Positions 2,314 through 31,735 of a DNA stretch of 32,000 nt are shown here, piece after piece. The translations under genes and the position numbers were made by a program. Every line of letters starts with the position of its first letter. Positions within the stretch are counted from its first letter, which is position 1. The notes under the pieces were generated by a model. That model did not search any database, was not told where the DNA came from, and saw only the letters and a list, made by a program, of their open reading frames with translations. This stretch comes from Halogeometricum borinquense DSM 11551 (lineage in GTDB: Archaea; Halobacteriota; Halobacteria; Halobacteriales; Haloferacaceae): assembly GCF_000172995.2 (NCBI RefSeq), contig NC_014732.1, positions 90,001 to 122,000 of the forward strand, given 5' to 3'.

Positions 2314-2376
2314 CCGACGAGACAGTTGGCCGATAAACGGGCTCCGTATCGAACGCTGTCTCGATGCCTTCCTATC

Positions 2377-5205: not shown

Positions 5206-5978
5206 AGGCGCTCCGAACTGTCGCTGGCCTCGCCGGAATCGTCGTCGTCGCCGTCACTATCGGACTCGTCGCCGGCGTCGTGACACCAGTTTCGGCGCTT
5301 TCGGAACGGGTCAGTTCGCTCGACGGCGAACAGTACCTCTTAGCTCTCGCCGCGGTGTTGCTCCTCGGTGGGCTTTGGTTCGCTCGCCGCCGTGCTTCAT
5401 CAACCAGTGACCGCTTTACGGAGCTCAGAGAGATGCCCCCCGAGGGCGCTTCTGCTCCGGCGTCAATTCGCGTCGGCGGCCGGTTCGACCGGGTCGTCGG
5501 CAACGCGCTCTCGTCAGACGATGACGACGCGATGACCCCGGTCGTTACTCGGCTTCGGGAGACGGCGACCGGCCTGTACGCCGACGTGGCGAACGTTGAC
5601 CAACAGACGGCACGCCGCTGTATTCGAAACGGTGAGTGGACGGACGACGAACTCGCCGCGGCGTTCCTCGCAGCGGGGTCAGGGCAAGCTCCACTTCGGT
5701 CTCGCATCCGGGTGTGGCTCGACCCGCCACGAGAGCGTCGTCGCCGGGTCGATGCCACGCTAGACGCACTGTTCGAACTCCGCGAGGGTGTGGTTCCGGC
5801 GAGTGAAGACTCCGAACGACTGGCCGAACGGGAGTCGGAGACGCTGCGCGAATCCGAAGATTCTGCGGGACGTGAGCCAGAGACCTCCGGAACTGACGAG
5901 GGTGAGGTTGAGAGCATCGCTCCCGACGAAACTGATCACGCGTCGGCCACGAAAGTCGATGCCGGTGGTGAGCAATGA
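5202..5978 (+). CDS. hypothetical membrane protein (two N-terminal TM helices), operon member
   Basis: Its ATG overlaps the upstream stop (ATGA at 5202-5205). The product is 258 aa with N-terminal TMs ([34 protein letters not shown]) and an acidic/Arg-rich soluble tail. No catalytic motif was recognised. Similar small proteins accompany DUF58 genes in haloarchaea as far as I recall, but I could not verify this. Confidence 0.7.
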
Positions 5979-10983: not shown

Positions 10984-11017
10984 AAATACTATAGATCTAC
11001 ACTATTAATAATTTCAT

Positions 11018-11386
11018 ATGAGCGCAAATAGTGATGAGGTATACGAACTGTACGAACAATTATCAGAAGAAGAGCGTGAAGATTTCTTCCACCGATTATC
11101 TGGTGATCTAGATTGGGTCAGCATCGACGAAAGTGTACCAGAGATTGACGAGGAACCCTGGAACTTGTATTGGCACGAATTCAAGAGTGGCTCTGACGAA
11201 TTTGAAAAATTCATCCATAACCCCCTCGCAGTACTAGCAAATTCGATCGAAGAGGTTGACGAAAGCTTCCATATAACTACTAATATTGTCAATCATCACC
11301 GAGGGCTTGCGATGACAGAGGTATGTACAATGCCGATGGTTATGGCTGAGTACGAAACAGTGCACGTTCTATTATACAAGCACTGA
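11018..11386 (+). CDS. hypothetical acidic protein encoded in the low-GC island
   Basis: An uninterrupted 122-codon ORF in ~37% GC DNA, where stops should be frequent. The start is ATG, with tattaataa upstream. The sequence is very acidic (SDEVYELYEQLSEEEREDFFHRLSGDLDWVSIDESVPEIDEEPWNLYWHEF…). No family recognised. Confidence 0.5.
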   Translation: MSANSDEVYELYEQLSEEEREDFFHRLSGDLDWVSIDESVPEIDEEPWNLYWHEFKSGSDEFEKFIHNPLAVLANSIEEVDESFHITTNIVNHHRGLAMTEVCTMPMVMAEYETVHVLLYKH

Positions 11387-11467
11387 ATAGACAAACACAT
11401 CTACAATCTGTCAGTAAATACCGTACCTCATCAATATTTTTCTGATTCTGACAAGAAGGGGTATGTA

Positions 11468-11629
11468 ATGGAGGAATATAGGGAACTCCATAGCAAGTTG
11501 CGTGCAACCCTGAACGACTTGCGACAGGCAGTTGGCGAGGCACTGGTGGTTGTGGAAGCCGAAGAATCGACCGGACTCAGTACGCGGTCCAAGCACCTGC
11601 GGACGTACGAGTCGGTACTAGTACGATGA
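11468..11629 (+). CDS. candidate 53-aa micro-ORF coupled to the downstream hydrolase gene
   Basis: This ORF is below the 60-aa cutoff and so is absent from the supplied track. Translation: MEEYRELHSKLRATLNDLRQAVGEALVVVEAEESTGLSTRSKHLRTYESVLVR. Its TGA (11627-11629) overlaps the ATG (11626-11628) of the next gene as ATGA. It is predicted helical, with intermediate GC3 (about 60%). Confidence 0.3.
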   Translation: MEEYRELHSKLRATLNDLRQAVGEALVVVEAEESTGLSTRSKHLRTYESVLVR

Positions 11630-13026
11630 TTTCGCGCCGCTCTGTTCTCCAGTGTATCACCGCTGGGTCTCTCGTCGGATTGGTTGGCCACACGGGATCT
11701 ACAGCACAACCCGAATCTACGACAGACGGAACCGACCAGAACGCCACCGGCAAGCTTCGTGTCTCACCAACGTCAGTACATTACGACGAACCGTTCACAC
11801 TCATGGTGAGTGGCATAGCTCCTGGGACAGCCGTGACGATCACGGCCCGGACGTTCGACCGCGAGGGTCGTCAGTGGGCTTCGTTCGCAACGTTCACGGC
11901 GTCCTCGAAGGGTGTCGTCGATATCGAGACGCACGCTCCGGACGCAGGGACGTACGAGACAGTTTCTCCTATGGGGTTAATCTGGTCGATGCGGCCAACC
12001 GACGGCGAATCATCAATATACGCGCCACCGGAGGGAGGCAGCGACCTGACGCTCACTGCGAGCGCCGATGGTCGACAAATCGGCCAGCAGACCGTGACCC
12101 GGTGGTTCGGTCCCAAGAAGTTGCATACCGAGGCGTCTCCCGACGGACTTCTTGGCACGCTATTCCGACCGAGCGGGGATGGTCCATATCCAGGTGTTAT
12201 GGTCCTCCACGGCTCAGGCGGTCAGCCCGCCGTCGGAAGCGCGCTCATGCTTGCCGCCCACGGATACGCAGCGTTCGCACCACAGTATTTCGGTCCGCCA
12301 GATGCAGTTCCGGACCAGCTAGCCGAGGTTCCCCTTGAATACCTCCAGCGGGGCTACGACTGGCTAACGAGCCGTCCAGCTGTTCGAGACGGCTCGGTCG
12401 GCCTCCTCGGCACTTCCAAAGGGGCTGAATTGGCGTTGCTAGCTGGTGCGACCTTCGATTGGGTCGGAGCTGTCGCGGCGTACGCACCGTCGGGCATCGT
12501 CTGGGCGGGGTTGACGTACGGTGGCGAGATGACATCGTCGTGGACACTCGACGGCGACCCGGTTCCGTTCGTCCCGACCGCGTTCCCGCCGTCGGTCATC
12601 GCCGACTACGTCGCATCGTGGCCGCTCGGAGGTTCGGTGTCGCTCCGACCGACCTACGAGGTTGGATTGGAGCAGGCGAGTACCGAGCGAATCTCGGAGG
12701 CGACGATACCGGTCGAGAACATCGACGGCCCGGTAACACTCGTCTCGGGCGGAGACGACAGATTATGGCCGTCAGCCACATTCGGACGGATGGTAGTGAG
12801 GCGACTCCGTAACCATGAGCATCCGTATCCGGTCCGACACGTTACGACGGAGACGGCGGGCCACGCCATCTCGTTCCCGTATCAGCCAACCACCGGGTTG
12901 ACGGCGATAAGCAGTCCGCCCCCGGGGACTACGATGGCATTGGGCGGGTCTCCGGAAGGCCTCGCACGGGCTAACAAGGAGTCGTGGCCGGTCGTCCTCT
13001 CGACGCTTGAGGGGGGATTATCATGA
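11626..13026 (+). CDS. Tat-secreted BAAT/acyl-CoA thioesterase-like (dienelactone hydrolase fold) alpha/beta hydrolase
   Basis: 466 aa.
- Twin-arginine signal: MISRRSVLQCITAGSLVGLVG.
- N-terminal beta-sandwich segment: KLRVSPTSVHYDEPFTLMVSGIAPGTAVTITART….
- C-terminal hydrolase: PGVMVLHGSGGQP…LAAHGYAAFAPQYFG.
- Nucleophile elbow GTSKGAELALL (GxSxG) and a late …TETAGHAI… (His). Confidence 0.85.
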   Translation: MISRRSVLQCITAGSLVGLVGHTGSTAQPESTTDGTDQNATGKLRVSPTSVHYDEPFTLMVSGIAPGTAVTITARTFDREGRQWASFATFTASSKGVVDIETHAPDAGTYETVSPMGLIWSMRPTDGESSIYAPPEGGSDLTLTASADGRQIGQQTVTRWFGPKKLHTEASPDGLLGTLFRPSGDGPYPGVMVLHGSGGQPAVGSALMLAAHGYAAFAPQYFGPPDAVPDQLAEVPLEYLQRGYDWLTSRPAVRDGSVGLLGTSKGAELALLAGATFDWVGAVAAYAPSGIVWAGLTYGGEMTSSWTLDGDPVPFVPTAFPPSVIADYVASWPLGGSVSLRPTYEVGLEQASTERISEATIPVENIDGPVTLVSGGDDRLWPSATFGRMVVRRLRNHEHPYPVRHVTTETAGHAISFPYQPTTGLTAISSPPPGTTMALGGSPEGLARANKESWPVVLSTLEGGLS

Positions 13027-16216: not shown

Positions 16217-17185
16217 TCAGTCGTTCTGCCGTGCCGAGGCAACGGGCGGGACGGGGACGCTGTCGAGGACTTCGTCCACTACGTCGAGTGGATCGACACC
16301 GCGGACGCGCGCGTCCGATGTCAGGACAAGTCGGTGGCGGAACACCGACGGTGCGGCGGCTTTCACGTCGTCCGGGACGGCGTAGTCGCGTCCTCGGATG
16401 ACCGCGCGGGCGCGCGCAGCCTCGAACAGTCGCTGGATTCCACGCGGGGAGACGCCGACATCGACGCGGGCGTCTTCACGTGTCGCACGACCTAAATCGA
16501 CGATGTAGTCGCGCAGTTTCTCGTCCACGCGGACGTGTTCGGGGACAGAGCGGAGTGCGGACACTTGTTCATCGGTGACGACGCGCGAGGCCGACGGGGA
16601 ACGCCGCGTCCGGTCGGCCCGCCGGTCGATGAGTTCGCGCTCGCCTTCGCGTCCGGGGTACCCGAGTTCGGTCTTGACGATGAACCGATCCCGTTGCGCC
16701 TCGGGCAGGCGGAACGTTCCTTCCTGTTCGACTGGGTTCTGCGTGGCGATGACGAAAAACGGGTTCGGGAGGTCGTGGGTGACGCCGTCCACCGTGACCT
16801 GTCCCTCGCCCATCGCTTCGAGGAGCGCGGCCTGCGTCTTCGGCGGCGCGCGGTTAATCTCGTCTGCGAGGACGACGTTGGCGAAGATAGGGCCGGGTTG
16901 GAACTCGAACGCTCCCTGTCGCTCGTCGTAGACGTTCGACCCGGTGATGTCGGCTGGGAGGAGGTCGGGCGTGAACTGAATACGGGCGAACGAGAGACCG
17001 AGGGCGGCGGCGATGCTCCGTGCGGTCAGCGTCTTTCCGGTGCCGGGAACGTCCTCGAGGAGGACGTGACCTCGGGCGAGGACGCCAGTCAAGACGGTTT
17101 CGAGGAAGTCGCGCTCTGCGACGACTGCGGCGCTGACAGCCTCGACCACGTCGTCGCACGTCGCCGCGGCCTGTGGTACGTCCAT
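16217..17185 (-). CDS. MoxR-family AAA+ ATPase
   Basis: 322 aa from ATG 17185. Motifs: HVLLEDVPGTGKTLTARSIAAALGLSFARIQFTPDLLPADITGS (Walker A), NVVLADEINRAPPKTQAALLEAM (Walker B) and FFVIATQNPVEQEGTFRLPEAQRDRF. Its stop is only 4 nt from the convergent antiporter stop. Confidence 0.95.
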   Translation of the reverse strand: MDVPQAAATCDDVVEAVSAAVVAERDFLETVLTGVLARGHVLLEDVPGTGKTLTARSIAAALGLSFARIQFTPDLLPADITGSNVYDERQGAFEFQPGPIFANVVLADEINRAPPKTQAALLEAMGEGQVTVDGVTHDLPNPFFVIATQNPVEQEGTFRLPEAQRDRFIVKTELGYPGREGERELIDRRADRTRRSPSASRVVTDEQVSALRSVPEHVRVDEKLRDYIVDLGRATREDARVDVGVSPRGIQRLFEAARARAVIRGRDYAVPDDVKAAAPSVFRHRLVLTSDARVRGVDPLDVVDEVLDSVPVPPVASARQND

Positions 17186-17438
17186 AGGGCCGCTTCGGCG
17201 GACCACCTTTTGAACTTTCCCGTCGGAGAACCAACTTGTTGGCCGTCTACATGACATCGGTGACTTATTTTCACGTCCGCAAGCGAGTCGGGAAGCGTGG
17301 CGAGAGACACTGTCTGATTTTGAAGCTACGCAGACGGGCGGGATAGATTTATGAGTGCTTTCTCTCGATGAGTATCATGTCAAATCAGTGTTTGCTCTGT
17401 ACGCCCCCAACGACCACTCGGCGTAGACTCATCGCCCG

Positions 17439-20794: not shown

Positions 20795-23503
20795 CTACGC
20801 TGTGCCCTCAGTACGTATCTCGAAGCGCGCTCCGCCGGTTTCGCTCTCCGTAATGTGTACTGTCCATTCGTGAGCGTGAGCGATTGTGCGAACGATACCG
20901 AGTCCGAGTCCGGTACCTTGGGGTTGCGTCGAGACTCCGGGTTCGAACACCTCGTCTCGGTCTGCTTCGGGGATGCCACGTCCATCGTCTTCGACGAAAA
21001 ATCCGTTCGAGAGACGCCCGACGCGGACTGTTATCGTCTCGTCGGGTGAGTTGTGATCGATGCTGTTTCGAAACAGGTTCTCGAACAGTTGTTTCAGCCG
21101 CCCCTCGTGTGCCGCTATGGTTCCGAGGTTGTCCGCAACGACGAGGGTGGCGTTGGTGCCGTTCACCGCTGTTTCCCACGACTCTCGGGCGACGCTACCG
21201 AGAAGGACTGTCTCCCGTTCTTCGACGGGTTGTCCCTGCCGTGCGAGGCTCAGCATGTCTTCGATAATCTGGCGCATCCGCTGATGAGCGTCCTCGATAC
21301 GTTCGAGTCGCTTTTCTATCGTGTCGTACTGGCCTGCCTCGTGATTCGCACGAAGGATTTGCAGTTGTCCGGACGCGAGATTAAGTGGGTTCCGCAAGTC
21401 GTGGCTGACGACGCTCGCAACCTGTTCGAGTTGCTCGTTTTGGTGTTCGAGTTCGCGTTCGTGGTGACGGAGCAGTTGCTCTCGTTCGACGCGTTCGAGC
21501 GCCGCACTCGCGTTCGAGGCCAGAATTCGAGCGAGCGAGACACGGGAGTCGTTCAGCGTTCCGGGTTCTCGTGATCCCGCCATCAGCACTCCGACATCAC
21601 CGATGGGAAGAACGACCTCACTCTGTATCTCCGTATCGGGGTTCATTACCGCAGGGTCCGTGGAGACGTTCTCGAACACCTCACCTTCGCCGCTCTCGAA
21701 CACTCGCCACGCGATGCCGTGCCCTCGTGGGATGACCTCGTCGTCAACAATCTCCTTTGCGGCATCGGACACCGCGTGGGTAAGCAGCGCATCGCGGTCT
21801 TCGTCGTAGAATGAGATGCTGTTCAGCGGATAGTTGAGGATGTTTTCCGCCGCATCACTCACGATTGTTGCGACTTCCTCGTACGTCGTCGCCGTCGTCA
21901 GTTCTCGGCTTGCGCTGTGGAGCGCGCTCAGTCGGGCTTGATACTGCTTGCGCTCGGTTACGTCCGTCGTCAGGGCAACGACTCCTCGCTGTTGCGACTC
22001 GTCACCAATGCCCACCTCACACGCTGATTCATGCTCGTCTCGGAGCGGTGAGAAGGTAACCTCGATGTACTCGATATCTCCTGGGATATCGACTTCGAGT
22101 TCGACTCGCTCGTTATCTGACTCGCCGTCGAGAATCCGGTCGATGGCTGTCTGTACTGCTTCGAGCCCATCCGCATCGATCATCCCCGTCTCGTGTAAGA
22201 CGCTCACGTGTTCTCCGCGGATGTTCTCTTCTGGCTCTCTCATCCGAGTGCCAGCCACGGGACTTACGAACTCGAAGCACCCGTCTGTTCCGATGATGTA
22301 TGCACCTTGTGTGGTGCTTCGGACGACGTTCTCGTAGCGGTGGAGTCGTCGCTCGCGCTCTCGCTGATCGGTCACGTCGCGCGAGTTGACGACGATGCCG
22401 TCGATACTCTCCACTGGGTCTGCACGGGCGATAGATTCTAGCCACACCCACGATCCATCGGCGTGGCGGCTACGAAACCGCGCCGTCTCGACTCTCGACG
22501 AGTCGGAGTTGTACATTTCCGTGAGGAGGTTTTGCATCTCTGCTCTGTCTTCCGGATGGATGAACGTCATCACGCTCTGTCCCTCGACGAGTTCGGGCGA
22601 CACGCCCAGTATCCGCTCGCAGGATGGACTCTGATATTTGATGGTGCCGTCTCGGCCGATAATTGTCACGAGGTCGGACGACCGTTCGATAAGAGCCTGA
22701 AACCGCTCTTCGACGCGTTCCTCGTCGCTCATCTCGCGGACAGACCCGAGGACGGCGCGTTCGCCTTCGTACTGAATCCCTTGGACGCTGAACTTACACC
22801 GCTTTGCAGTTCCGTCTTTCGTTACGATTCGTGCCGTGTATCGTGACGGCGTTTCAGGGTCCTCGCGCCTCCGCTTTGCCGCGATGTCGCGGACGCGTTC
22901 TTTGTCGTCCGGGTGAATGAGTTTCCAGATTTCCGTCTCGTTTAGTTCCTCTTCGTCGTACCCCGTCAGTTCGCACGTCCGACGGTTGACGAACTGAAAC
23001 TGCTCGCCCTGATAGATGTAGATGGCGTCGTGACTCCGCTCAACGGCAGTACGGTACAACTGCTCGCTCTCGCGGAGACGACGCTCAGTCCGATAGTGTT
23101 CGACAGCGTTGTTGATACGGTTTGCGAGGAGTTCGTACTGCTCGACTCGTGTTCGCTTTTGGATATAGTCGGTGACACCCGCGGAGATGGCTTCGCTTGC
23201 CACTTCCTCGCTCCCACGACTCGTAAAGAGAATAAATGGAAGTCGTTCGTCTACGTCTCTGACGCGTCTGAGAAGATCGATTCCGGTGGTTTCACCCATC
23301 TCGTAGTCGCTTACGACACACTCGATTTGCGCCGTCTCTCCGTCGGACACCGCGCCGTCAGCATCTCCCAGATGGGTAACTACAGAATCGGTGTCGGTCT
23401 CGACGCAGACCTCGAACCCGCCCTGTCGTTCGAGGTGTGTCGCCACGAGTTCGGCAAACGCCGGGTCGTCATCGACGTGCAGCACACGAACCGGCTCGGT
23501 CAT
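20795..23503 (-). CDS. multidomain sensor: receiver (REC) + 3 or more PAS + GAF + HisKA/HATPase histidine kinase
   Basis: 902 aa.
- REC: VRVLHVDDDPAFAELV…CVVSDYEMGETTGIDLL…FILFTS.
- PAS segments: YRTAVERSHDAIYIYQG…; FQALIERSSDLVTIIGRDGTIKYQSPS…; YENVVRSTTQGAYIIGTDG….
- GAF-like: LSALHSASRELTTATTYEEV….
- H-box: VASVVSHDLRNPLN.
- N/G boxes: LFRNSIDHN, VEDDGRGIP, GTGLGLGIV. Confidence 0.95.
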   Translation of the reverse strand: MTEPVRVLHVDDDPAFAELVATHLERQGGFEVCVETDTDSVVTHLGDADGAVSDGETAQIECVVSDYEMGETTGIDLLRRVRDVDERLPFILFTSRGSEEVASEAISAGVTDYIQKRTRVEQYELLANRINNAVEHYRTERRLRESEQLYRTAVERSHDAIYIYQGEQFQFVNRRTCELTGYDEEELNETEIWKLIHPDDKERVRDIAAKRRREDPETPSRYTARIVTKDGTAKRCKFSVQGIQYEGERAVLGSVREMSDEERVEERFQALIERSSDLVTIIGRDGTIKYQSPSCERILGVSPELVEGQSVMTFIHPEDRAEMQNLLTEMYNSDSSRVETARFRSRHADGSWVWLESIARADPVESIDGIVVNSRDVTDQRERERRLHRYENVVRSTTQGAYIIGTDGCFEFVSPVAGTRMREPEENIRGEHVSVLHETGMIDADGLEAVQTAIDRILDGESDNERVELEVDIPGDIEYIEVTFSPLRDEHESACEVGIGDESQQRGVVALTTDVTERKQYQARLSALHSASRELTTATTYEEVATIVSDAAENILNYPLNSISFYDEDRDALLTHAVSDAAKEIVDDEVIPRGHGIAWRVFESGEGEVFENVSTDPAVMNPDTEIQSEVVLPIGDVGVLMAGSREPGTLNDSRVSLARILASNASAALERVEREQLLRHHERELEHQNEQLEQVASVVSHDLRNPLNLASGQLQILRANHEAGQYDTIEKRLERIEDAHQRMRQIIEDMLSLARQGQPVEERETVLLGSVARESWETAVNGTNATLVVADNLGTIAAHEGRLKQLFENLFRNSIDHNSPDETITVRVGRLSNGFFVEDDGRGIPEADRDEVFEPGVSTQPQGTGLGLGIVRTIAHAHEWTVHITESETGGARFEIRTEGTA

Positions 23504-24539: not shown

Positions 24540-26087
24540 CTACGTCGGATTCTCGAACGGCGACCGCGCCCCGTCTGGTTCGTAGCCCGGCAGGGTGATG
24601 AGGTTCCGACGGCCGAGTGAGATTTTCGTTACGCGTCCCTCGTCAGCCATCGATGAGAGGACACGGCTGACCGTCGCCTTCGACCATCCCGTCTCCGAGA
24701 CGATGGTACTCTGTTCCAGTCGGCCGCCCGCTTCTTCGAGGATGGCGATGATTTCATCCTCTCGGGTGAGGGGTTCGTCGTATTCGGTGTCGTCAGCACC
24801 GCCTTTGGCTCCCGCTGTCGTTGGAGCGTCGTAGCCCGCTGGTTCTGGACCCGGCTCGCTCGCTGTTTCCGAGGTGTTTGTCCCCGTCGTGTCAGACACC
24901 GCGGTTGCTTGGTCAACGGTAGCAGCACCGCCCGAGTCGTCGCCGTCGTCGGTCGTCGCGGGCGCGCCACCGCCCCGACTCCGCCACCAGAGGTAGCCCC
25001 CACCGACGGCGAGGACGGTGGTCCCGAGGAGGGCAAATGCGGCACTCGTCGAGATGGGCGTATCCGGTTGGGTATCCTCTCCGGGATTGGTCCCCTGTTC
25101 TATCTCCACCTTGTCGCTCGTTCCGTCGCCGTCGGTGTCTGGTTTGTTCGGGTCCGTTCCGTGAACGTTCACCTCGGCACCGTCTTTGAGGCCGTCACTA
25201 TCGGTGTCGGCTTTGTTCGGATTCGTGTTCGTCTCTTCTACTTCAATCGCGTCCGCGAGATTGTCGTTGTCCGTATCGGGCTTACTCGCATTCGTCTCGT
25301 GAGTGTTTATCTCGGCACCGTCTGAGAGGCTGTCGCCGTCGGTGTCTGCCTTGTTGGGGTTTGTATTGTACGTTCGAATCTCGGCAGCGTCCGAGAGACC
25401 GTCGTCGTCTGTGTCGCCATTCGTTGGCGATGTCGAGTACTTGTTCACCTCGACGCCGTCTTTGAGGTTGTCGCTGTCGGTGTGGGGGTCTGTCGGGTTC
25501 GTGTTGTACGTCGAGACTTCGAGCGAGTCTCCGAGATTGTCATTATCTGAGTCACTCTTGGTCGGATCGGTGCCGTGTGTGTTGACCTCTTCCCCGTCGT
25601 TGAGACCATCGTCGTCGGTGTCAGCGGTCCGGAATCCGGTTTTACCGTTCACTTCCTCTTTGTTCGAGAGGCCGTCATCGTCGATGTCACCGTCCTTCGT
25701 CATCACGAACACGACCCTTTCCGAGACGCGTGTCTCTCCGTCCGTTCCGTTTACGTAGACGTTCTGCGGCCCTGTCACCTCCGTGGGCCACTTCGAAACG
25801 GTGAGCGTCACTGAGGTCGTTCCGTTCCCGGCCGAACACGCGACGGTCGCGTTTCCGCTCTCCGGTCCAATACAGACGGACGCTGACGATGAAATCGGTT
25901 TTTCTGTCTCAACCCGTACGTCGGTGGATGATGACTGCCAGACGTATGTGATTCCGTCGATGGTGGCCACGGTTTCCGAGGTGACCGTCGTTCCGGGCGC
26001 CGCCGCCACTGGCGCACCGATCACGCCGAGGAGGACGAGTACGGCCGCGCCGAACGAGAGTACGGACCGAAGTACGGTTGAAGACAT
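24540..26087 (-). CDS. membrane-tethered winged-helix protein with extracellular thrombospondin-type-3-like Ca-binding repeats
   Basis: 515 aa from ATG 26087; a GTG at 26123 is an alternative. Residue numbers below follow the 527-aa ORF.
- Signal peptide: MSSTVLRSVLSFGAAVLVLLGVIGAPVAAA.
- A ~100-aa beta-rich domain.
- About 9 D-x-D-x-D-G/N-L-x-D-x-x-E repeats (aa ~144-345, nt ~25089-25694), e.g. DTDDDGLNDGEEVNTHGTDP and DTDGDSLSDGAEINTHETN.
- One TM followed by RSR (aa ~359-383, nt ~24984-25049).
- An acidic linker.
- C-terminal wHTH: REDEIIAILEEAGGRLEQSTIVSETGWSKATVSRVLSSMADEGRVTKISLGRRNLITL (nt ~24588-24773). Confidence 0.85.
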   Translation of the reverse strand: MSSTVLRSVLSFGAAVLVLLGVIGAPVAAAPGTTVTSETVATIDGITYVWQSSSTDVRVETEKPISSSASVCIGPESGNATVACSAGNGTTSVTLTVSKWPTEVTGPQNVYVNGTDGETRVSERVVFVMTKDGDIDDDGLSNKEEVNGKTGFRTADTDDDGLNDGEEVNTHGTDPTKSDSDNDNLGDSLEVSTYNTNPTDPHTDSDNLKDGVEVNKYSTSPTNGDTDDDGLSDAAEIRTYNTNPNKADTDGDSLSDGAEINTHETNASKPDTDNDNLADAIEVEETNTNPNKADTDSDGLKDGAEVNVHGTDPNKPDTDGDGTSDKVEIEQGTNPGEDTQPDTPISTSAAFALLGTTVLAVGGGYLWWRSRGGGAPATTDDGDDSGGAATVDQATAVSDTTGTNTSETASEPGPEPAGYDAPTTAGAKGGADDTEYDEPLTREDEIIAILEEAGGRLEQSTIVSETGWSKATVSRVLSSMADEGRVTKISLGRRNLITLPGYEPDGARSPFENPT

Positions 26088-26865
26088 ATCGATTCCTGTT
26101 GTATGTATCACTATACGTTTCACTCAAAAACTTACTGACTTATGTCGGAATGGAGGTATAATGTGGTTCTAAAACAGCTATATCTTTAAGAAATTCAATT
26201 TATCCGACTGGTACTTGGACGCCCAGTTCTCCCCTCTCTTCCTTTTCACCGGGTGCTATCGAAGGGATTCATTTGGCGGACTGTGGCGTGATGAAACGGT
26301 CCGGTTTTGAAGCCGTTAACGGCGGTTTCCCCCGTGAAACAGTCGTGAAACAATGGAAGTAATCGGAACGAGTGTGACCGTCTTTACCCGTCCAGTTACT
26401 TGGTATCGGTGATGGCATCGTACGGACCACCGAACGTGTGACAGCTACTTCCCCACTATCGCTGTCCACGTCTGAGGTCCGAGCCATCGTCAGGTGACGG
26501 ACAGCGGTTTCGGACGATCGACGCCGGGCACGGAGGCCTCCCCTCTTCCCCGGCCGCAACCCCCGCCCCGCCGTTATCCCCATGGCGGCGCTCCTATCCC
26601 ACTTTGCGGGGGTCTTCTCGTCGCATCCCCAGCGACATCCCTTCGTCCGACTCCCACATCGGCACGCCACGCGGCGTCGCATCCCATAAACGTTCGCGTG
26701 GCCGTTCCCGGTGCCCGGTCTCGCGTCCGAACCGCCTTTCGCTCGTACTCACGATCCGTAGCCGTTTCTCCGGCTAGCACCGTGTACTACGGCACGCTTT
26801 CAAACACGACAACTGTCTTTAACATCGACTAAATCCGTTGTTTCGTATTTTACGTTACTTCGTAG

Positions 26866-27711
26866 TTACTTATCCAGCCGCGCCATCTCTTCGTCTGTGA
26901 GTTCGAGGCGCGTCGCCCCGATGTTCTGCTTTAGGTGTTCGACGCTCGATGTCCCCGGAATTGGGAGCGTGACCGGTGAGTGCTGTAGTAACCACGCGAG
27001 CATGACCTGATACTCGGTGGCATCGTGGTTCTCAGCAACTGATTCGAGTACATCCACTTTCTCGTCTAACTCTCCTGCAGCAAGTGGGAACCACGGGATG
27101 AACCCGATGTCGTACTCCTCACACGCCGCTAGCACGTCGTCGTCCTCGCGGTGACCGAGGTTGAATTTGTTTTGGACCGTCGCCACGTCTACGATGTCCC
27201 GCGCCGTTTCTAACTGTTCGACGCTCACGTTGCTGAGTCCGATGTGTTCGATAACTCCCTCGTCTTTCAGTTCTGCGAGTGCTGTGACCGACGCCTCGAA
27301 GTCAACGTCGGGGTCCCGTCGGTGAAGTTGGTAGAGGTCGATGCTCTCTACACCCAGTCGGTCGAGGCTACACAGGTGGGCGTTCCGTAGATAGTCCGGG
27401 TCACCGTGCGGAAGCCAGTCGCCGTCACGGTTGCGTAGGAGGCCGCCTTTCGTGGCGACGACTAACTCTTCAGGGTAGGGAGCCAGTGCCTCTCGGATGA
27501 GCCGTTCGCTCACACCCGGTCCGTAGGAGTCTGCCGTGTCGATGAGGTTGACACCGAGGTTCACCGCCGTCTGAAGGACGCGCTTTGCGTTTTCCTCGTC
27601 GTCCGGTTTGCCGATGATATTTTCACCCGTGATTCGCATCGCCCCGAAGCCGAGTCGGTGGACTGTCAGATCGCCGCCAATATCGAACGTGTCGCTCTCG
27701 TTTTGGTGCAT
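26866..27711 (-). CDS. aldo/keto reductase
   Basis: 281 aa from ATG 27711; the listed 40-codon extension is R/C-rich. Motifs: HRLGFGAMRITG, IDTADSYGPGVSERLIREAL, VVATKGG, IDLYQLHRRD, IEHIGLSNV, IPGTSSVEHLKQN. Confidence 0.9.
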   Translation of the reverse strand: MHQNESDTFDIGGDLTVHRLGFGAMRITGENIIGKPDDEENAKRVLQTAVNLGVNLIDTADSYGPGVSERLIREALAPYPEELVVATKGGLLRNRDGDWLPHGDPDYLRNAHLCSLDRLGVESIDLYQLHRRDPDVDFEASVTALAELKDEGVIEHIGLSNVSVEQLETARDIVDVATVQNKFNLGHREDDDVLAACEEYDIGFIPWFPLAAGELDEKVDVLESVAENHDATEYQVMLAWLLQHSPVTLPIPGTSSVEHLKQNIGATRLELTDEEMARLDK

Positions 27712-27979
27712 CGGTCTGTGTGATGTGCGGCAGGACCCTAAACAGTCCGGCGGTTGTCCATGACATCTATACACACGAATACGGCCGCGAGACGTCCCGA
27801 CAGCGTCAGACAAGCGACGGACACGACACAAGACTTTTAATCAATCTCGCGTACATTCGGGTACGGTAACAGAGCGACGGTCCACGGGCGCGCCGGGTAG
27901 GGGTACTTGACGCGAACGTTGACTGTCGTTCCTTCCTCAATTTCATGAACTAACTGTCCAGCAACAGCACTGTCAACAG

Positions 27980-28002: not shown

Positions 28003-30498
28003 CTATTCGTCGTACTCGGACAAGCGGTATTCGACCTGTTCGTTCATCTCTTCGAGGACGCGTTCGACTTCACGCCCTTCGATGAGTTCCGAGAGGCCTT
28101 CCGAGATAATGGTTCGAACCGTACTGAACGGGCCAATTCGGGCACCGCACGTCGCGGGCGTGTCCTGGCTCTCGTTCAGTTGCTCGAACGCGACGGCGAA
28201 TTCGGGGTGTTCCTCGAACCAGCCGTCGCGGCGAAGCATCCGTTCGGCGTCGCCGTGAACTGGGAAGTATCCGGTCTGTTGGTGCCACCGACGCTGTTGT
28301 TCCGGTTCGGTCAACCACGCGAGGAAACGACCGGCGGCCTCCTGTTCGCGGGCCGGCACGTCGTCGGCCACCCACAGCGATGCCCCGCCGACGACCACAC
28401 CTTCCTGCGTCCCCGGTGCCGGGAACTTGCCGACGGACGCGTTAAAGCCGCGTTCGTCGGCCCCTTCGACGACTGAGAGCGTGTTCGAACTCGAATCGAC
28501 GAGCATCGCAGCGTCGCCGTCGAGGAACGCCTCACGCGCTCTGCCGCGAGCCTCGATACCGGGATCGAACAGCAGCCCCGTTCGGGCGAGGTCCGACCAC
28601 CAACGGAATATCGTCTCGCCGGTGTCGCTCGACAGATTCGCCGTCGTCGCCGTTCCGTCTCGTCCGTTCGATGCATCTACGAGCGTCTCTCCGGCCGTAG
28701 CGAACCACTGTTCGATGAACCAACTGTAGTTCGCCCACGTCGCTCCGTACTCTGCGGCACCGCTCTCGACCACTTTCTCGGCGGCTTGCGTCAGGTCGTC
28801 GAACGTCTCCGGTGGATTCGACGGGTCGAGACCAGCGCGTTCGAACGCGTCGGCGTTGTAGTACAACACCGGATTCGAACTGTTGAACGGCAGCGACCAC
28901 AGCGTTCCGTCGTCGCGGTAGTAGTTTGCGATGGACGGGACGAGGTCGCTCGTGGATGTTTCGGCTGGGAGGACCGATTCTACGGGGGTGAACACACCGC
29001 TGTCGAGTGCGCGCTTCGTCCCGATTTCGAACAACTGCGCGACGGTCGGTGGCGATCCGGACCGGGCCGCAGCCATTGTCGCGTCGAACGTCCCGCGGTA
29101 GTTACCCTTGGGCGACATATGGACGTGGATGTCGTCGTGTTCGTCGTTGAACTCCTCGGCAAACGACTCCATCAGAATCGCCTTCGACCCCGACATCGCG
29201 TGCCAAAACTGAACGATAGTCTTCCCGGCGACTGTTTCGGCTTTCCCGAGGTCGTACTCGTCTAACGTCTCTTGGAGTACGTCAGCCTGCTCTGCGAGCG
29301 CGTTGACGTTCGTCATCGCCTCCGAGAGCGACGTTGTCTGTCGTCGGGCCGACTTCACCACGGTGGTCGCCTGTGCGGCCGTCTCCTCGCTTATCGCACC
29401 CACTTCGTCGGCTTGTCCGACGACTTCCTGCGCCGTCGTGGCCTGTGAGTCGGTCGCATCGCTTATCTCTTGGACGCTGGCGTTCGTCTCCTGTACGTCC
29501 TCGACCATCTCATCGAGCGATCCGAGCGCTTCTTCGATGGTTTCGCTCTCGGTGGCGACCCGTTCTCGCGCCTCGGTGATTCCCTCGACGGTTTCCTCTG
29601 ATTGTGCCCGAATTTCCTCGATAGCCGCCTCGATGTCTTCGGTTGCCTCCTGCGTCTCGGTTGCGAGTGACTTTACCTCGTCGGCGACGACGGCGAACCC
29701 CGCTCCCGCCTCGTTCGCCCGTGCGGCCTCGATGGACGCGTTGAGCGCGAGGATGTTCGTCTGTTCGGCAATTTCAGAAATCTGCGTGACGACGCCGGTG
29801 ATGTCGTCGATGAGTTCGTTCAGCGAGTCCACTTGCGAGACGGTCCGCTGGGTCTGTTCGTCGATAGCGTCGAGTCCGTCGATGGCTTCTTCAGCGGCGT
29901 CTCTGGCTTGCTGTCCGCGCGTCGCGGCGTCCGACGTCGAAGAGGCAATTTCGTCCGCGGACGAGGCCACTTCTTCGACGGTCGCAGAGAGGTTCCGCAT
30001 CTCGTTTGCAACTTCGTCGATGCTCTCGCTCTGCTGTGTCGCCCCTTCGGCGATATCGTCTACCGAATCGGAGACGTTTCGGCTCGCGCTTCGACTGTCC
30101 TCGACCGAATCAACGACGCTTTCGGTGGAGGCGGAAACCTGCTTCGCAAACACGTCCACGTCAGCCATCGTTCCGTGCAACTCCGCAAATAGATCGTTGA
30201 GGGACTCCGCCAACTGAGCCATCTCGGGGTCGTCCGGCACATCCACTCGAACGCTCAGGTCACCGTCGGTGAACTGGTTTACTGCCGCGGTGAACTCCTC
30301 GGCGAGAGCGGCCTTCGGAGACGAGTCGTCGGTGGTCGCATCTGTCGTCGCGTCAGGGGAGACGACGCTTCCACCGTCCGTGCCGACCCGTTCTGTTTCC
30401 TGTGCCGACGACTCGCCGGTATCTCGCTTGAAAACCCTCGCTGCGAGTCGTTCTCGTAGCGATGGTTCCGGCGCGCTCGTGCCGTGGTTGTCTCTCAT
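28003..30498 (-). CDS. soluble methyl-accepting chemotaxis transducer (Htr-like) fused to a C-terminal ABC-type solute-binding-protein (UgpB/sugar-type) domain
   Basis: 831 aa, with no hydrophobic TM segment.
- HAMP-like: [39 protein letters not shown].
- MCP signalling hairpin: [40 protein letters not shown] (aa ~65-415, nt ~29254-30306).
- From aa ~422 (nt 28003-29235), an SBP-like domain: [27 protein letters not shown]…[12 protein letters not shown]…[23 protein letters not shown]…[14 protein letters not shown]…GGASLWV…. It has no signal peptide or lipobox at the junction. Confidence 0.9.
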
Positions 30499-30569
30499 TA
30501 CGGTGACTTCTCTTGACTTTCAACTTAACCGTTGAGTGCGAAAAATCAAATGTGATAACGCCAGACAGC

Positions 30570-31343
30570 TTAGACTTCAGGCGATTCCATCACCTGTGGG
30601 ACTCCCTGTGCCACGACTGTCTCACCGACGATGTACGACGAGGCGGGCGAGGCAAGGAACTGTGCGAGGTCGGCAATCTCCTCGGCTGTTCCGATGCGGC
30701 GCTTTACCTCCTCACGGTCGATATTGTCGGCGGAGACGCCCATCTGTGATTCGACACCCGGCGTGGCGACGAATCCGGGTGCGATGCAGTTTACGCGGAC
30801 GTTCTCGTCGGCCCACTCGTAGGCGAGCGTCGTCGTCAAATTGACCACGCCTGCCTTCGCCGCGCCGTAGTGACTCATAAACGGCGCACCCTCGGTTCCG
30901 GCGACGCTAGCGAGGTTGATGACTGTCCCACCGCCGTCTTTCAGATACTCCCCGGCGACTTGGGTACAGTGGTACGTGCCGGTGAGATTGATGTCAACGA
31001 CGGTTTCCCACCCGTTCGCGGAGATGTCGTCGAACGACGACATGAACGACGCTCCCGCGTTGTTCACCAGACAGTCGAGGTCGCCGAACTCCTCGACGGT
31101 GGCCTCGACCAATGCCTCCACGGCCTCGCGGTCGGTCACGTCGCATTCGACGGCCAGCGCACGCCCGCCGTCGCCTTCGTTTATCCCGTCTGCAACAGGA
31201 TTTACGTTCCCTTGTTCGCGGGAGCAGACCACCACGTTCGCACCCTCCGCCGCGAAGCGTTCTGCGATGGTCTTTCCGATACCACTCGATGCACCCGTCA
31301 CGATGGCTGTCTGTCCATCAACACCGAATCGGTCCGCCGTCAT
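30570..31343 (-). CDS. short-chain dehydrogenase/reductase (FabG-like)
   Basis: 257 aa. Motifs: TAIVTGASSGIGKTIAERFAAEGANVVV (TGxxxGxG), NNAG, and the catalytic S…YGAAKAG (YxxxK). Confidence 0.95.
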   Translation of the reverse strand: MTADRFGVDGQTAIVTGASSGIGKTIAERFAAEGANVVVCSREQGNVNPVADGINEGDGGRALAVECDVTDREAVEALVEATVEEFGDLDCLVNNAGASFMSSFDDISANGWETVVDINLTGTYHCTQVAGEYLKDGGGTVINLASVAGTEGAPFMSHYGAAKAGVVNLTTTLAYEWADENVRVNCIAPGFVATPGVESQMGVSADNIDREEVKRRIGTAEEIADLAQFLASPASSYIVGETVVAQGVPQVMESPEV

Positions 31344-31489
31344 TGCTCTGCCTCCGTGATCCGTCTCTCGTCACTCATTCCGTCTTCTTCCTCTCGTGCA
31401 TCGTTAATCAAACCTCGCCTCAGGTTATCAACGTAAAACACTGACAACGTCGGAGTAACGCTTAAGAAATTTTGCGCACAACTGTGTGC

Positions 31490-31735
31490 ATGGGCGAGAC
31501 AGAGTACCGAAACGTCAGACTCACAGAAGACGCCTACCAGCGTCTGAAGATGCGTAAACAGGAGGGTGAGTCGTTCTCCGACACGGTCGCCCGAATTGCG
31601 GGCGAGCGGTCGCTGCTCGACTTAGCAGGAATCCTGTCCGACGACGAGGCCGACGCGATGCGCGATGCGATCCGAGAACGCGAGGAACAGTCACGTGACC
31701 GACTGGACCGCCTGTCCGACGAGATGGACTCGTGA
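31490..31735 (+). CDS. vapB: VapB-type antitoxin (archaeal …ESFSD… family)
   Basis: 81 aa from ATG 31490. The sequence VRLTEDAYQRLKMRKQEGESFSDTVARI is the typical N-terminal motif of archaeal PIN-associated antitoxins. Its stop overlaps the next gene's start (GTGA at 31732-31735). Confidence 0.8.
   Translation: MGETEYRNVRLTEDAYQRLKMRKQEGESFSDTVARIAGERSLLDLAGILSDDEADAMRDAIREREEQSRDRLDRLSDEMDS

What the first reader, a model, noticed from the sequence alone, without database searches (positions are those of the whole stretch)
28003..30498. TM-less chemotaxis transducer with a solute-binding-protein domain fused to its C-terminus
A single uninterrupted 831-codon ORF joins two parts. The first is a complete HAMP plus methyl-accepting signalling domain with a canonical hairpin ([17 protein letters not shown]…[13 protein letters not shown]). 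The second is a full-length ABC-type periplasmic-binding-protein domain.

Three things are unusual:
- The sensor lies C-terminal to the signalling module.
- There is no TM helix, signal peptide or lipobox anywhere, so a fold that is normally extracellular would be cytoplasmic.
- In the studied haloarchaeal cases (Halobacterium BasT/BasB and CosT/CosB), the binding protein is a separate secreted lipoprotein that docks onto a membrane transducer. A covalent, soluble version would sense an intracellular metabolite directly.

The flanking SDR (30570-31343) and aldo/keto reductase (26866-27711) lie on the same strand. They hint at a sugar or polyol ligand and possible metabolism-linked taxis.
Basis: partly seen in the sequence, partly recalled or inferred. 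Interest (0 to 1): 0.7.

Follow-up and report, generated by a model that had tools for sequence, protein, structure and literature searches.

The report
Soluble archaeal chemoreceptor with glycerol-phosphate sensor
This gene encodes a membrane-free chemotaxis receptor of salt-loving archaea whose sensor is a re-used transporter binding protein that most likely detects glycerol phosphate inside the cell; the protein family is already named (Htr38), but nobody has reported what it senses.

Summary
Window 28003-30498 (-) is one 831-codon ORF from Halogeometricum borinquense DSM 11551. It encodes a disordered N-terminus, HAMP, a ~44-heptad MCP hairpin, a ~10-aa linker and a full ABC-type binding-protein domain. 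It has no TM segment, signal peptide or lipobox.

It is not an assembly artefact. More than 100 full-length fused homologs exist across haloarchaeal genera, and 74 of 80 metagenome loci show the same fusion.

The architecture is not new:
- It is the Htr38 group (Haloferax volcanii HVO_2220; 0 TM, no known stimulus).
- A 2022 census lists SBP_bac_8 as a cytoplasmic C-terminal ligand-binding domain.

What I add is a ligand hypothesis.
- The C-terminal half is a UgpB homolog (TM-score 0.91 to E. coli UgpB).
- All seven H-bonding glycerol-phosphate contacts are invariant in the fused proteins aligned.
- In 8 of 22 independent lineages the gene lies inside the glycerol/dihydroxyacetone catabolic cluster, in several gene orders.
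- The sister clade is a secreted Tat-lipoprotein UgpB, one copy sitting in a Ugp-type ABC operon beside glpK.

Best reading: a cytoplasmic glycerol-phosphate sensor that couples glycerol catabolism to taxis. This is inferred, not tested.

The parts
28003..30498 (-). Complete ORF (831 codons plus stop) of the soluble Htr38-type transducer
   Evidence: ORF list. 100 % identical protein in H. borinquense DSM 11551. In-frame stop 8 codons upstream of the ATG.
30319..30498 (-). aa 1-60: non-conserved, acidic, low-complexity N-terminal region with no sensor domain
   Evidence: AF2 pLDDT is below 50 for residues 1-15 and 24-59. In homologs this region is 17-177 aa long and has no conserved columns.
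30175..30318 (-). aa 61-108: HAMP domain (AS1 helix 61-77, connector, start of AS2)
   Evidence: Pfam HAMP 68-108, 33.3 bits against a cut-off of 25. AF2 helices 61-77 and 91 onward. G79 and D80 are invariant.
29716..30174 (-). aa 109-261: descending (N) arm of the MCP four-helix-bundle hairpin, about 22 heptads
   Evidence: Continuous AF2 helix 91-260. Pfam MCPsignal.
29971..29976 (-). aa E175-E176: candidate methylation/adaptation pair in the conserved motif LSA[AT]xEE[VI]A[AS]SA
   Evidence: The motif is conserved (EE in 23 of 24 homologs, QE in Halonotius). Assignment as a methylation site is by resemblance only.
29662..29766 (-). aa 245-279: hairpin tip / CheA-CheW interaction region ([35 protein letters not shown])
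   Evidence: Sequence. This is the most conserved block of the family.
29257..29715 (-). aa 262-414: ascending (C) arm of the hairpin, about 22 heptads, with a second candidate methylation pair E371-E372 (nt 29383-29388)
   Evidence: AF2 helix 262-414. The ISEETA motif is shared by most homologs.
29224..29256 (-). aa 415-425: short, sequence-variable Ser/Thr/Ala/Asp-rich linker between the end of the bundle and the first strand of the SBP domain
   Evidence: pLDDT below 50 for residues 414-423. Length varies by only about 5 residues across the family: the hairpin-to-FWH distance is 182-187 aa in 88 of 91 homologs.
28006..29223 (-). aa 426-831: UgpB-type (CUT1, cluster D-I) solute-binding domain. 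Candidate ligand contacts are Y467, E491, S541, S669, G705, Y744, R795, plus aromatics W588, Y591, W593.
   Evidence: Sequence match to 4AQ4 E. coli UgpB, E 1.5e-62. Foldseek TM 0.91, rmsd 1.9 A. pLDDT mostly 85-97. Contact residues are invariant in the fused homologs aligned (24, 20).
30522..30528 (-). TTAAGTT, 24-30 nt upstream of the ATG: possible archaeal TATA-like box for a leaderless transcript (weak inference)
   Evidence: Read directly from the sequence. Not tested; the promoter tool does not cover archaeal promoters.

Best explanation
The gene encodes a soluble halobacterial transducer of the Htr38 group.

**Shown**
- The layout is: a disordered N-terminus, one HAMP, a ~44-heptad methyl-accepting hairpin, then an ~10-residue linker to a complete UgpB-type binding-protein domain.
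- The whole protein lacks any export or membrane signal, so it is cytoplasmic.
- The binding domain descends from a secreted Tat-lipoprotein UgpB of a haloarchaeal Ugp-type ABC transporter. The signal peptide, lipobox and linker of that ancestor were replaced by the transducer module.
- The pocket keeps every hydrogen-bonding contact that UgpB uses for glycerol phosphate.

**Inferred**
- The domain binds intracellular glycerol phosphate. The likeliest species is sn-glycerol-3-phosphate made by glycerol kinase. The archaeal lipid precursor sn-glycerol-1-phosphate is also possible, because UgpB binds both.
- Venus-flytrap closure of the domain changes the packing at the HAMP-proximal end of the bundle and so modulates CheA.
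- The cell therefore swims up glycerol gradients by reading the product of its own glycerol uptake and phosphorylation. This would be metabolism-dependent taxis, analogous to the cytoplasmic arginine sensor Car.
- Conserved Glu-Glu pairs would provide CheR/CheB adaptation.
For: **Architecture and location**
- Domain content and absence of export signals.
- AF2 model: helices 91-260 and 262-414, a low-confidence linker at 414-423, and a confident SBP fold.

**UgpB identity of the sensor**
- Sequence match to E. coli UgpB 4AQ4, E 1.5e-62, and to Phaeobacter UgpB 9lff, E 4.9e-49.
- Foldseek top hits are UgpB structures 6x84, 4aq4 and 9lff, with TM-scores 0.85-0.92 normalised to the target.
- Published G1P/G3P contacts of Phaeobacter UgpB are Tyr64, Ser143, Ser266 and Tyr342 for the phosphate, and Glu88, Gly303 and Arg393 for the hydroxyls (PMC12718374).
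- These map to Y467, S541, S669, Y744, E491, G705 and R795. All seven are invariant in 24 of 24 and 20 of 20 fused homologs.
- In 40 unfused relatives the Glu88 position is conserved in only 17 and the Arg393 position in 31.

**Gene context**
- The fused gene is embedded in glpCBA / glpK / DUF7973 (predicted glycerol facilitator, PMC3102087) / ptsH-ptsI / dhaKLM clusters in Haloarcula (L002), Halohasta (L085) and Halonotius (L087).
- Across 87 loci (80 metagenomic plus 7 genomic), linkage is seen in 8 of 22 lineages after de-duplication at 80 % identity, and in 6 of 12 at 70 %.
- At least four different gene orders occur.
- My rough estimate is that about 0.6 % of randomly placed genes would fall that close to glpK.

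**Origin**
- Fused SBP domains are monophyletic. Their sister group is L163 plus P0124, both secreted Tat-lipoprotein homologs.
- L163 sits with two permeases and an ATPase next to glpK.

**Role in taxis**
- H. volcanii htr38 (HVO_2220) is co-upregulated with che and arl genes (PMC12091111).
- The protein is detected in proteomes (PMC12949519).

**Coupling**
- Linker length is tightly constrained.
Against: - No binding or behavioural experiment exists for any family member in the literature I could search.
- The score against the curated UgpB equivalog model is below its cut-off (237.9 against 411 bits).
- The two-Trp clamp that mutagenesis shows to be important in UgpB is only half conserved. 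The Trp191 equivalent (W593) is invariant. The Trp188 equivalent aligns to Asn or Thr in the fused proteins, flanked by F/W588 and Y591. The exact ligand could therefore differ, for example a glycerophosphodiester or another small phospho-polyol.
- In this window, and in Haloferax, Halorubrum, Halapricum and Halopiger, the gene is not next to glycerol genes.
- The linker is sequence-variable and modelled with low confidence, so the coupling mechanism is speculative.
- G3P and G1P cannot be told apart from sequence.
Confidence: 0.55

Rival explanations
1. The architecture and cytoplasmic location are as above, but the ligand is a different phosphorylated metabolite. Candidates are a glycerophosphodiester such as glycerophosphoglycerol or GPC, another phospho-polyol, or a phosphate-status signal. 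The receptor would then report lipid turnover or phosphorus status rather than glycerol catabolism.
For: [quoted passage not shown]
- The first clamp Trp is replaced in the fused clade.
- The score is below the UgpB equivalog cut-off.
- Most isolate genomes inspected do not place the gene beside glp genes.
Against: - All hydroxyl- and phosphate-contacting residues of the G3P/G1P site are invariant.
- When the gene is linked to anything, it is linked to glpK, glpABC and dhaKLM. It is never linked to phosphodiesterase or pst/pho genes in the loci examined.
Confidence: 0.2
2. The SBP domain no longer senses a small molecule. It acts instead as a scaffold, oligomerisation or localisation module, or as a chaperone-like domain as reported for E. 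coli UgpB. The receptor would then only contribute to array structure or respond through HAMP.
For: - The linker is flexible and sequence-variable.
- E. coli UgpB has a second, chaperone activity (title of PDB 6x84; PMC8144458 listed).
- No N-terminal sensor exists either, so a 'silent' receptor cannot be excluded from sequence alone.
Against: - Strict invariance of precisely the ligand-contact residues across 42-77 % identical homologs, stricter than in the unfused transporter relatives, is the signature of a maintained binding pocket.
- The AF2 fold is complete and confident.
- The association with the glycerol cluster is hard to explain for a pure scaffold.
Confidence: 0.1
3. The fusion is an assembly or annotation artefact (two genes), or the protein is in fact membrane-bound or exported through a missed signal.
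For: Twenty of the 120 best homologs carry an N-terminal hydrophobic segment. Some of these look Tat/lipobox-like, for example 'TRRTRLLLGVLGACLC' in Halonotius.
Against: - The same uninterrupted fusion occurs in >100 independent genomes and metagenomes.
- This protein has no segment above KD 0.78, and an in-frame stop lies 8 codons upstream of its start.
- Even in the anchored variants there is no TM segment between the MCP and SBP modules, so the SBP stays on the same side as the signalling domain. That side must be cytoplasmic for the receptor to meet CheA and CheW.
Confidence: 0.02

Closest known systems
Htr38 of Haloferax volcanii (HVO_2220) and proteins annotated 'transducer protein Htr38' in other Haloferax species
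   Same: - 63-65 % identity over 92-98 % of the length, with the same Pfam content (PF00015 + PF13416/PF01547).
- Listed with 0 TM helices (PMC7289035).
- The window protein is an ortholog.
   Different: Nothing essential. The N-terminal low-complexity region differs in length and sequence. Htr38 has no assigned stimulus or partner, so membership gives no function.
UgpB, the sn-glycerol-3-phosphate ABC-transporter binding protein (E. coli 4AQ4; Phaeobacter 9lff/9lfj)
   Same: - End-to-end homology and the same fold.
- All seven H-bonding ligand contacts and one clamp Trp are conserved.
   Different: - No signal peptide.
- Fused to an MCP.
- No adjacent permease or ATPase genes.
- Below the curated equivalog score.
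- The first clamp Trp is replaced.

It is a UgpB-derived sensor, not a transporter subunit.
BasT/BasB and CosT/CosB of Halobacterium salinarum; MBP-Tar of E. coli (binding-protein-dependent chemoreception)
   Same: An ABC-type binding protein supplies ligand specificity to a methyl-accepting transducer (PMC7289035; PMC8050422).
   Different: In those systems the binding protein is a separate, secreted protein that docks on the extracellular domain of a 2-TM transducer. Here it is covalently attached, cytoplasmic, and C-terminal to the signalling domain.
Car (Htr11), the cytoplasmic arginine transducer of H. salinarum
   Same: A soluble Htr that measures a metabolite inside the cell (PMC7289035). 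It is the functional analogy for metabolism-linked taxis.
   Different: No homology in the sensor part. Car has no SBP domain.
Cytoplasmic chemoreceptors with a C-terminal sensor domain (class V of PMC9680633; e.g. H. pylori TlpD with a C-terminal CZB domain)
   Same: No TM helix, and the ligand-binding domain follows the MA domain (TlpD from PMC13001251 as listed).
   Different: The sensor here is a ~410-aa two-lobed CUT1 binding protein rather than a small zinc-binding or PAS-type module.

Membership tests
Methyl-accepting chemotaxis protein / halobacterial transducer (Htr) | MCP signalling domain with a conserved hairpin tip | tested here: met
   PF00015, 141.8 bits. The hairpin motif is present. 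This block is the most conserved in the family.
Methyl-accepting chemotaxis protein / halobacterial transducer (Htr) | HAMP domain N-terminal to the bundle | tested here: met
   PF00672, 33.3 bits against a cut-off of 25. AF2 helices 61-77 and 91 onward.
Methyl-accepting chemotaxis protein / halobacterial transducer (Htr) | About 44-heptad cytoplasmic bundle, the length class I recall as typical of archaeal receptors (Alexander & Zhulin 2007, from memory) | tested here: met
   Arms of about 153 residues each: aa 109-261 and 262-414. The class name itself rests on my recollection.
Methyl-accepting chemotaxis protein / halobacterial transducer (Htr) | Reversible Glu methylation by CheR/CheB, and control of CheA | not testable with these tools
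   Only conserved EE/QE pairs in Ala/Ser-rich heptads are seen.
Htr38 orthologous group (HVO_2220) | Full-length similarity to proteins named Htr38, with the same domain content and 0 TM | tested here: met
   P0006 and P0007 are 63-65 % identical over 92-98 % of the length and carry PF00015 + PF13416 + PF01547. No TM. PMC7289035 Table 1.
UgpB (NCBIfam NF008211 equivalog; Ugp ABC transporter binding protein) | Score above the curated whole-protein cut-off | tested here: not met
   237.9 bits against a cut-off of 411.
UgpB (NCBIfam NF008211 equivalog; Ugp ABC transporter binding protein) | Two-lobed CUT1 fold superposable on UgpB | tested here: met
   Foldseek: 6x84 TM 0.91, rmsd 1.9 A; 4aq4 TM 0.85; 9lff TM 0.87.
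UgpB (NCBIfam NF008211 equivalog; Ugp ABC transporter binding protein) | Phosphate contacts (2 Tyr + 2 Ser) and hydroxyl contacts (Glu, Gly, Arg) | tested here: met
   Y467, S541, S669, Y744, E491, G705 and R795 are invariant. The residue list is from PMC12718374.
UgpB (NCBIfam NF008211 equivalog; Ugp ABC transporter binding protein) | W-x-x-W clamp on the glycerol moiety | tested here: inconclusive
   The second Trp (W593) is invariant. The first aligns to Asn or Thr in the MAFFT alignment, while F/W588 and Y591 flank it. HMMER alignments shift by one residue here.
UgpB (NCBIfam NF008211 equivalog; Ugp ABC transporter binding protein) | Export signal and extracytoplasmic location | tested here: not met
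   No signal peptide, twin-arginine motif or lipobox. The unfused sister proteins have RR plus LAGC.
UgpB (NCBIfam NF008211 equivalog; Ugp ABC transporter binding protein) | Encoded with UgpA/E permease and UgpC ATPase genes | tested here: not met
   No ABC genes flank the gene in the window or immediately flank it in seven other genomes. The unfused sister L163 does have them.
Binding-protein-dependent membrane transducers (BasT/BasB, CosT/CosB type) | A separate secreted lipoprotein partner plus a 2-TM transducer with an extracellular domain | tested here: not met
   Single polypeptide, 0 TM, no partner gene. It works like a binding-protein-coupled receptor but is not a member of this type.
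Cytoplasmic chemoreceptors with a C-terminal LBD (class V, PMC9680633) | No TM, and the LBD is C-terminal to the MA domain | tested here: met
   The census lists SBP_bac_8/SBP_bac_1 in this position for Haloarcula, Halorubrum and others.

The most novel reading that the evidence does not exclude
The Htr38 family would be a dedicated cytoplasmic glycerol-phosphate chemoreceptor built from a domesticated transporter binding protein.

- It would let haloarchaea follow gradients of glycerol, the main carbon currency of hypersaline lakes, by reading the product of their own glycerol kinase.
- It would feed the signal into the four-helix bundle from its C-terminal end, beside the HAMP domain.
- That would be an 'intramolecular MBP-Tar' turned inside the cell.
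- In some lineages the gene appears to be co-transcribed with ptsH/ptsI and dhaKLM.
Probability: 0.45. Interest if true: 0.65.

Novelty: new member of a known kind. Interest (0 to 1): 0.5.

Why it matters
Htr38 is an orphan receptor in the main archaeal genetic model, Haloferax volcanii, where most transducers have no known stimulus.

The analysis turns it into a directly testable case:
- a specific ligand class (sn-G3P or sn-G1P);
- specific pocket residues to mutate;
- a specific behavioural prediction, namely glycerol taxis that depends on glpK.

Glycerol from Dunaliella is regarded as the key carbon source in hypersaline ecosystems. A glycerol-linked taxis sensor would therefore be ecologically meaningful.

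Mechanistically, it would be a natural example of a Venus-flytrap transporter protein rewired as an intracellular chemoreceptor input attached to the C-terminal end of an MCP bundle. That is useful for understanding, and for engineering, non-canonical signal entry into chemoreceptors.

Tried and rejected
1. **Genome-collection scan with the full-length alignment.** The tool chose the generic MCP hairpin as its pattern and returned 80 bacterial MCP loci (L004-L083). I replaced it with exact-protein look-ups and a metagenome scan using an SBP-only alignment.
2. **SDR (30570-31343) and aldo/keto reductase (26866-27831) as functional context.** Their Pfam identities are confirmed. Neither is a neighbour of the ortholog in any of seven other genomes, so I rejected them as a ligand clue.
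3. **Search for glpK, glpA or DUF7973 in the window by tblastn.** No hits. The rest of the window holds unrelated genes.
4. **Hidden TM helix or upstream start.** Rejected.
5. **Assembly artefact.** Rejected.
6. **Literature search for a described function.** I searched for a function of Htr38/HVO_2220 and for an MCP in haloarchaeal glycerol clusters. I found only listings and expression data.
   - Collins et al. 2014 (PMC4248653) is not held.
   - Subscription papers on haloarchaeal glycerol metabolism could not be checked.
7. **Resolving the Trp-clamp alignment from sequence.** It remained ambiguous.
Full report
**1. Observation**

The window comes from Halogeometricum borinquense DSM 11551. 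An identical 831-aa protein is on record for that strain.

The ORF at 28003..30498 on the minus strand is uninterrupted. An in-frame stop lies 8 codons upstream of the ATG.

Profile searches give the following domains:
- HAMP at aa 68-108, MCPsignal at 197-367, and SBP_bac_8/SBP_bac_1 at 441-767.
- The NCBIfam UgpB model aligns over aa 422-810 with 237.9 bits, which is below its 411-bit equivalog cut-off.

There is no sign of export or membrane insertion:
- The most hydrophobic 19-residue window scores 0.78 on the Kyte-Doolittle scale.
- There is no lipobox and no N-terminal twin-arginine motif.
- The only cysteine is at position 784.

The AlphaFold2 model, built on 24 homologs with mean pLDDT 75.6, has these parts:
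- a disordered N-terminus (aa 1-60);
- HAMP helix 61-77;
- one long helix 91-260, a turn, then helix 262-414. That gives two arms of about 153 residues, or about 44 heptads in all;
- a low-confidence linker at 414-423;
- a confident two-lobed alpha/beta domain at 427-830, with pLDDT mostly 85-97.

**2. The fusion is real and widespread, and it is already named**

The 120 best database hits carry both the MCP and the SBP Pfam domains, and most are full-length. They come from Haloferax, Haloarcula, Halorubrum, Halohasta, Halonotius, Halapricum, Halopiger, Halobiforma and many hypersaline metagenomes, at 42-74 % identity.

I ran a metagenome scan with an SBP-only alignment. In 74 of 80 loci the MCP half lies directly upstream on the same strand. 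Five of the six exceptions are truncated contigs; the sixth is L163, treated in section 5.

Several Haloferax orthologs are annotated 'transducer protein Htr38'. What the literature says about that group:
- The review 'Taxis in archaea' lists htr38 = HVO_2220 with 0 TM helices, no partner and no stimulus (PMC7289035).
- HVO_2220 is up-regulated together with che and arl genes in a hyper-motile H. volcanii strain (PMC12091111).
- The protein is detected in proteomes (PMC12949519).
- A 2022 census of archaeal chemoreceptors lists SBP_bac_8 or SBP_bac_1 as a cytoplasmic C-terminal ligand-binding domain in about 20 haloarchaeal genomes, without a ligand (PMC9680633).

So the architecture is catalogued and named, but functionally uncharacterised.

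**3. What the sensor domain is**

The C-terminal half alone matches solved UgpB structures end to end. E. coli 4AQ4 gives E 1.5e-62 and Phaeobacter 9lff gives E 4.9e-49. Other CUT1 sugar-binding proteins are far weaker, at E of 1e-19 or worse.

Foldseek ranks the UgpB structures first:

| Structure | TM-score (normalised to target) | Note |
|---|---|---|
| 6x84 (E. coli UgpB) | 0.91 | rmsd 1.9 Å over 416 columns |
| 4aq4 (E. coli UgpB + G3P) | 0.85 | |
| 9lff (Phaeobacter UgpB + G1P) | 0.87 | |

The 2025 structural study of Phaeobacter UgpB defines the contacts for both sn-G1P and sn-G3P (PMC12718374):
- phosphate: Tyr64, Ser143, Ser266, Tyr342;
- the two hydroxyls: Glu88, Gly303, Arg393;
- a Trp188/Trp191 clamp on the glycerol moiety.

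The seven H-bonding residues map to Y467, S541, S669, Y744, E491, G705 and R795 of the window protein. All seven are invariant in 24 of 24 diverse fused homologs and in 20 of 20 in an independent alignment that includes both UgpB structures. In 40 unfused relatives, the Glu88 position is kept in only 17 and the Arg393 position in 31. The pocket is therefore under stricter constraint in the fused clade than among transporter paralogs.

The clamp is only partly conserved. The Trp191 equivalent (W593) is invariant. The Trp188 position aligns to Asn or Thr and is flanked by F/W588 and the invariant Y591. The local alignment is ambiguous by one residue.

**4. Gene context**

In the window, the flanking SDR and aldo/keto reductase are confirmed as such. 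They are not neighbours of the ortholog in any of the seven other genomes inspected. The window contains no glycerol genes.

Other genera are informative:

| Organism (locus) | Gene order around the transducer |
|---|---|
| Haloarcula hispanica (L002) | Between a divergent glpA-glpB-glpC operon and glpK-DUF7973 |
| Halohasta salina (L085) | glpCBA (divergent), then glpK-DUF7973-AAA_16-htr-ptsH-ptsI, then dhaM-dhaL-dhaK |
| Halonotius terrestris (L087) | As Halohasta, but without ptsI and the dha genes |

DUF7973 corresponds to the uncharacterised membrane-protein family next to glpK that Anderson et al. predicted to be a glycerol transporter (PMC3102087).

I ran tblastn with reference proteins from L002 and L085 against 87 loci, then de-duplicated by SBP identity:

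| Identity threshold for de-duplication | Lineages linked to glp/pts/dha genes |
|---|---|
| 95 % | 32 of 60 |
| 80 % | 8 of 22 |
| 70 % | 6 of 12 |

At least four distinct gene orders occur, and ptsH typically lies 70-160 nt downstream. For a randomly placed gene in a ~3.5-Mb genome, I would expect linkage within 10 kb of glpK in about 0.6 % of cases. That figure is my rough estimate, not a computed control.

**5. Origin**

The nearest unfused relatives are at most 45 % identical. They are haloarchaeal proteins of 440-480 aa with a twin-arginine signal and a lipobox, for example P0124 'SRRGFLTTAGAVGALGLAGCSGG', plus P0127, P0128 and P0133.

In a neighbour-joining tree the fused SBP domains are monophyletic. 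The single 'unfused' tip inside the clade, P0138, looks like a truncated fused protein, because its match starts at residue 155. The sister group is P0124 plus L163.

L163 is a secreted lipoprotein homolog followed by two ABC permeases and an ATPase. It lies next to the same AAA_16 gene and glpK. That is a genuine Ugp-type transporter in the very cluster position that the fused transducer occupies elsewhere.

The simplest history is a single event. A glp-cluster ugpB lost its signal peptide, lipobox and linker, and became attached to the C-terminus of a soluble HAMP-MCP.

**6. Mechanism: what is shown and what is inferred**

*Shown:*
- The protein is a complete transducer plus a complete UgpB-type domain, all on the cytoplasmic side.
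- The only candidate sensor is the SBP domain. The N-terminal 17-177 aa of the family are non-conserved, acidic and of low complexity.
- The SBP domain starts within about 10 residues of the end of the C-terminal bundle helix. It therefore sits next to the HAMP-proximal end of the bundle.
- Linker length is tightly constrained although its sequence is not. The distance from the hairpin motif to the FWH motif is 182-187 aa in 88 of 91 homologs.
- An LSA[AT]xEE[VI]A[AS]SA motif is conserved on the N-arm, with QE in Halonotius. An ISEETA motif is common on the C-arm.

*Inferred:*
- The ligand is intracellular glycerol phosphate.
- Lobe closure is transmitted to the bundle or HAMP, either through the short tether or by ligand-dependent docking in the manner of MBP on Tar.
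- The EE pairs are CheR/CheB substrates.
- The output is taxis towards glycerol, through sensing of the glycerol-kinase product.

G3P and G1P cannot be distinguished from sequence, because UgpB binds both (PMC12718374).

**7. Variation within the family**

Twenty of the 120 best homologs are longer, at 905-946 aa. These include Halohasta, Halonotius and many metagenomic sequences. They carry:
- one strongly hydrophobic segment at about residues 20-43 (Kyte-Doolittle 1.5-2.5);
- a conserved 'VG.G.ALGFFGLFSRPWG' motif;
- a ~100-aa acidic spacer before the HAMP domain.

This is probably a membrane anchor or helical hairpin. Because no TM segment separates the MCP and SBP modules, the SBP domain stays cytoplasmic. 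I did not resolve the topology. 'TM-less' is thus a property of this protein and of most of the family, but not of all of it.

**8. Comparison with known systems, and novelty**

The protein works like a binding-protein-coupled chemoreceptor (BasT/BasB, CosT/CosB, MBP-Tar). It is not a member of that type, because the partner is covalent and intracellular. Functionally it parallels Car, the cytoplasmic arginine transducer.

It is UgpB-derived but fails three defining UgpB features:
- the curated score cut-off;
- an export signal;
- adjacent transporter genes.

It is an ortholog of Htr38 and an instance of the catalogued class of cytoplasmic receptors with a C-terminal SBP_bac_8 domain. I therefore rate it a new member of a known kind.

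I did not find two things in the searchable literature: the glycerol-phosphate ligand prediction, and the association with the glycerol cluster. Subscription papers on haloarchaeal glycerol metabolism and the Collins 2014 review could not be checked.

**9. Verdict**

The architecture and the cytoplasmic sensing are right. The novelty claim and the SDR/AKR clue are not.
- Confidence is about 0.97 that this is a genuine soluble Htr38-type transducer with a UgpB-type C-terminal domain.
- Confidence is about 0.55 that it senses cytoplasmic glycerol phosphate and links glycerol catabolism to taxis.
- Interest is 0.5. The architecture is known, but the analysis gives a sharp and cheap experimental test for an orphan receptor in a model archaeon.

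Noticed in passing
P0020-P0036, P0060 etc.; L085 8001-10802; L087 8001-10838: A sub-clade of long fused homologs (905-946 aa) has one N-terminal hydrophobic segment, a conserved 'ALGFFGLFSRPWG' motif and a ~100-aa acidic spacer. Halonotius-type N-termini even resemble a Tat signal plus lipobox ('TRRTRLLLGVLGACLC'). This is probably a membrane-tethered variant. Its topology is unresolved.
   Followed up: partly
L163 9842-14175: An unfused Tat-lipoprotein UgpB homolog (45 % identical to the window's SBP half) is followed by two ABC permeases and an ATPase. It lies beside an AAA_16 gene and glpK. It is a Ugp-type transporter in the glycerol cluster and the sister group of the fused domains.
   Followed up: yes
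L002 13363-14538; L085 6755-7924; L087 6667-7833; L163 8511-9665: An AAA_16/Cdc6-lid (Orc1/Cdc6-like) protein with a C-terminal wHTH-like tail is consistently adjacent to the transducer or ugpB gene in glycerol clusters. It is a candidate cluster regulator.
   Followed up: no
window 24540-26123 (-): A 527-aa protein with an N-terminal signal-like hydrophobic segment, several bacterial TSP3 calcium-binding repeats, a TM segment ('AFALLGTTVLAVGGGYLWW') and a C-terminal DUF7343/IclR-type HTH. It looks like a membrane-spanning one-component regulator with an extracellular Ca-binding repeat domain.
   Followed up: no
window 20795-23503 (-): A 902-aa hybrid sensor kinase with the layout REC - PAS - PAS - GAF - HisKA - HATPase_c.
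   Followed up: no
window 2326-8985 (+) and 16217-17257 (-): A run of genes for a transglutaminase-like/DUF4129 protein (959 aa), DUF7269, DUF58 and DUF7519, with a MoxR-type AAA_3 ATPase nearby. This resembles a MoxR/DUF58/transglutaminase module.
   Followed up: no
window 907-1722 (-): A ParA/AAA_31 partition ATPase. The longest contig that carries the identical transducer is 194,834 bp. Together these suggest the window lies on a megaplasmid rather than the chromosome.
   Followed up: no
window 31472-31735 (+): A VapB-type antitoxin (PF02697), probably the start of a toxin-antitoxin pair that runs off the window.
   Followed up: no
window 11001-12000: A local GC dip to 0.50 (window average about 0.60), just upstream of and overlapping the start of a BAAT/acyl-CoA thioesterase-like gene (11626-13026). 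It may be a foreign insertion.
   Followed up: no
window 26866-27831 (-): The mechanical ORF of the aldo/keto reductase starts at a TTG.
   Followed up: partly
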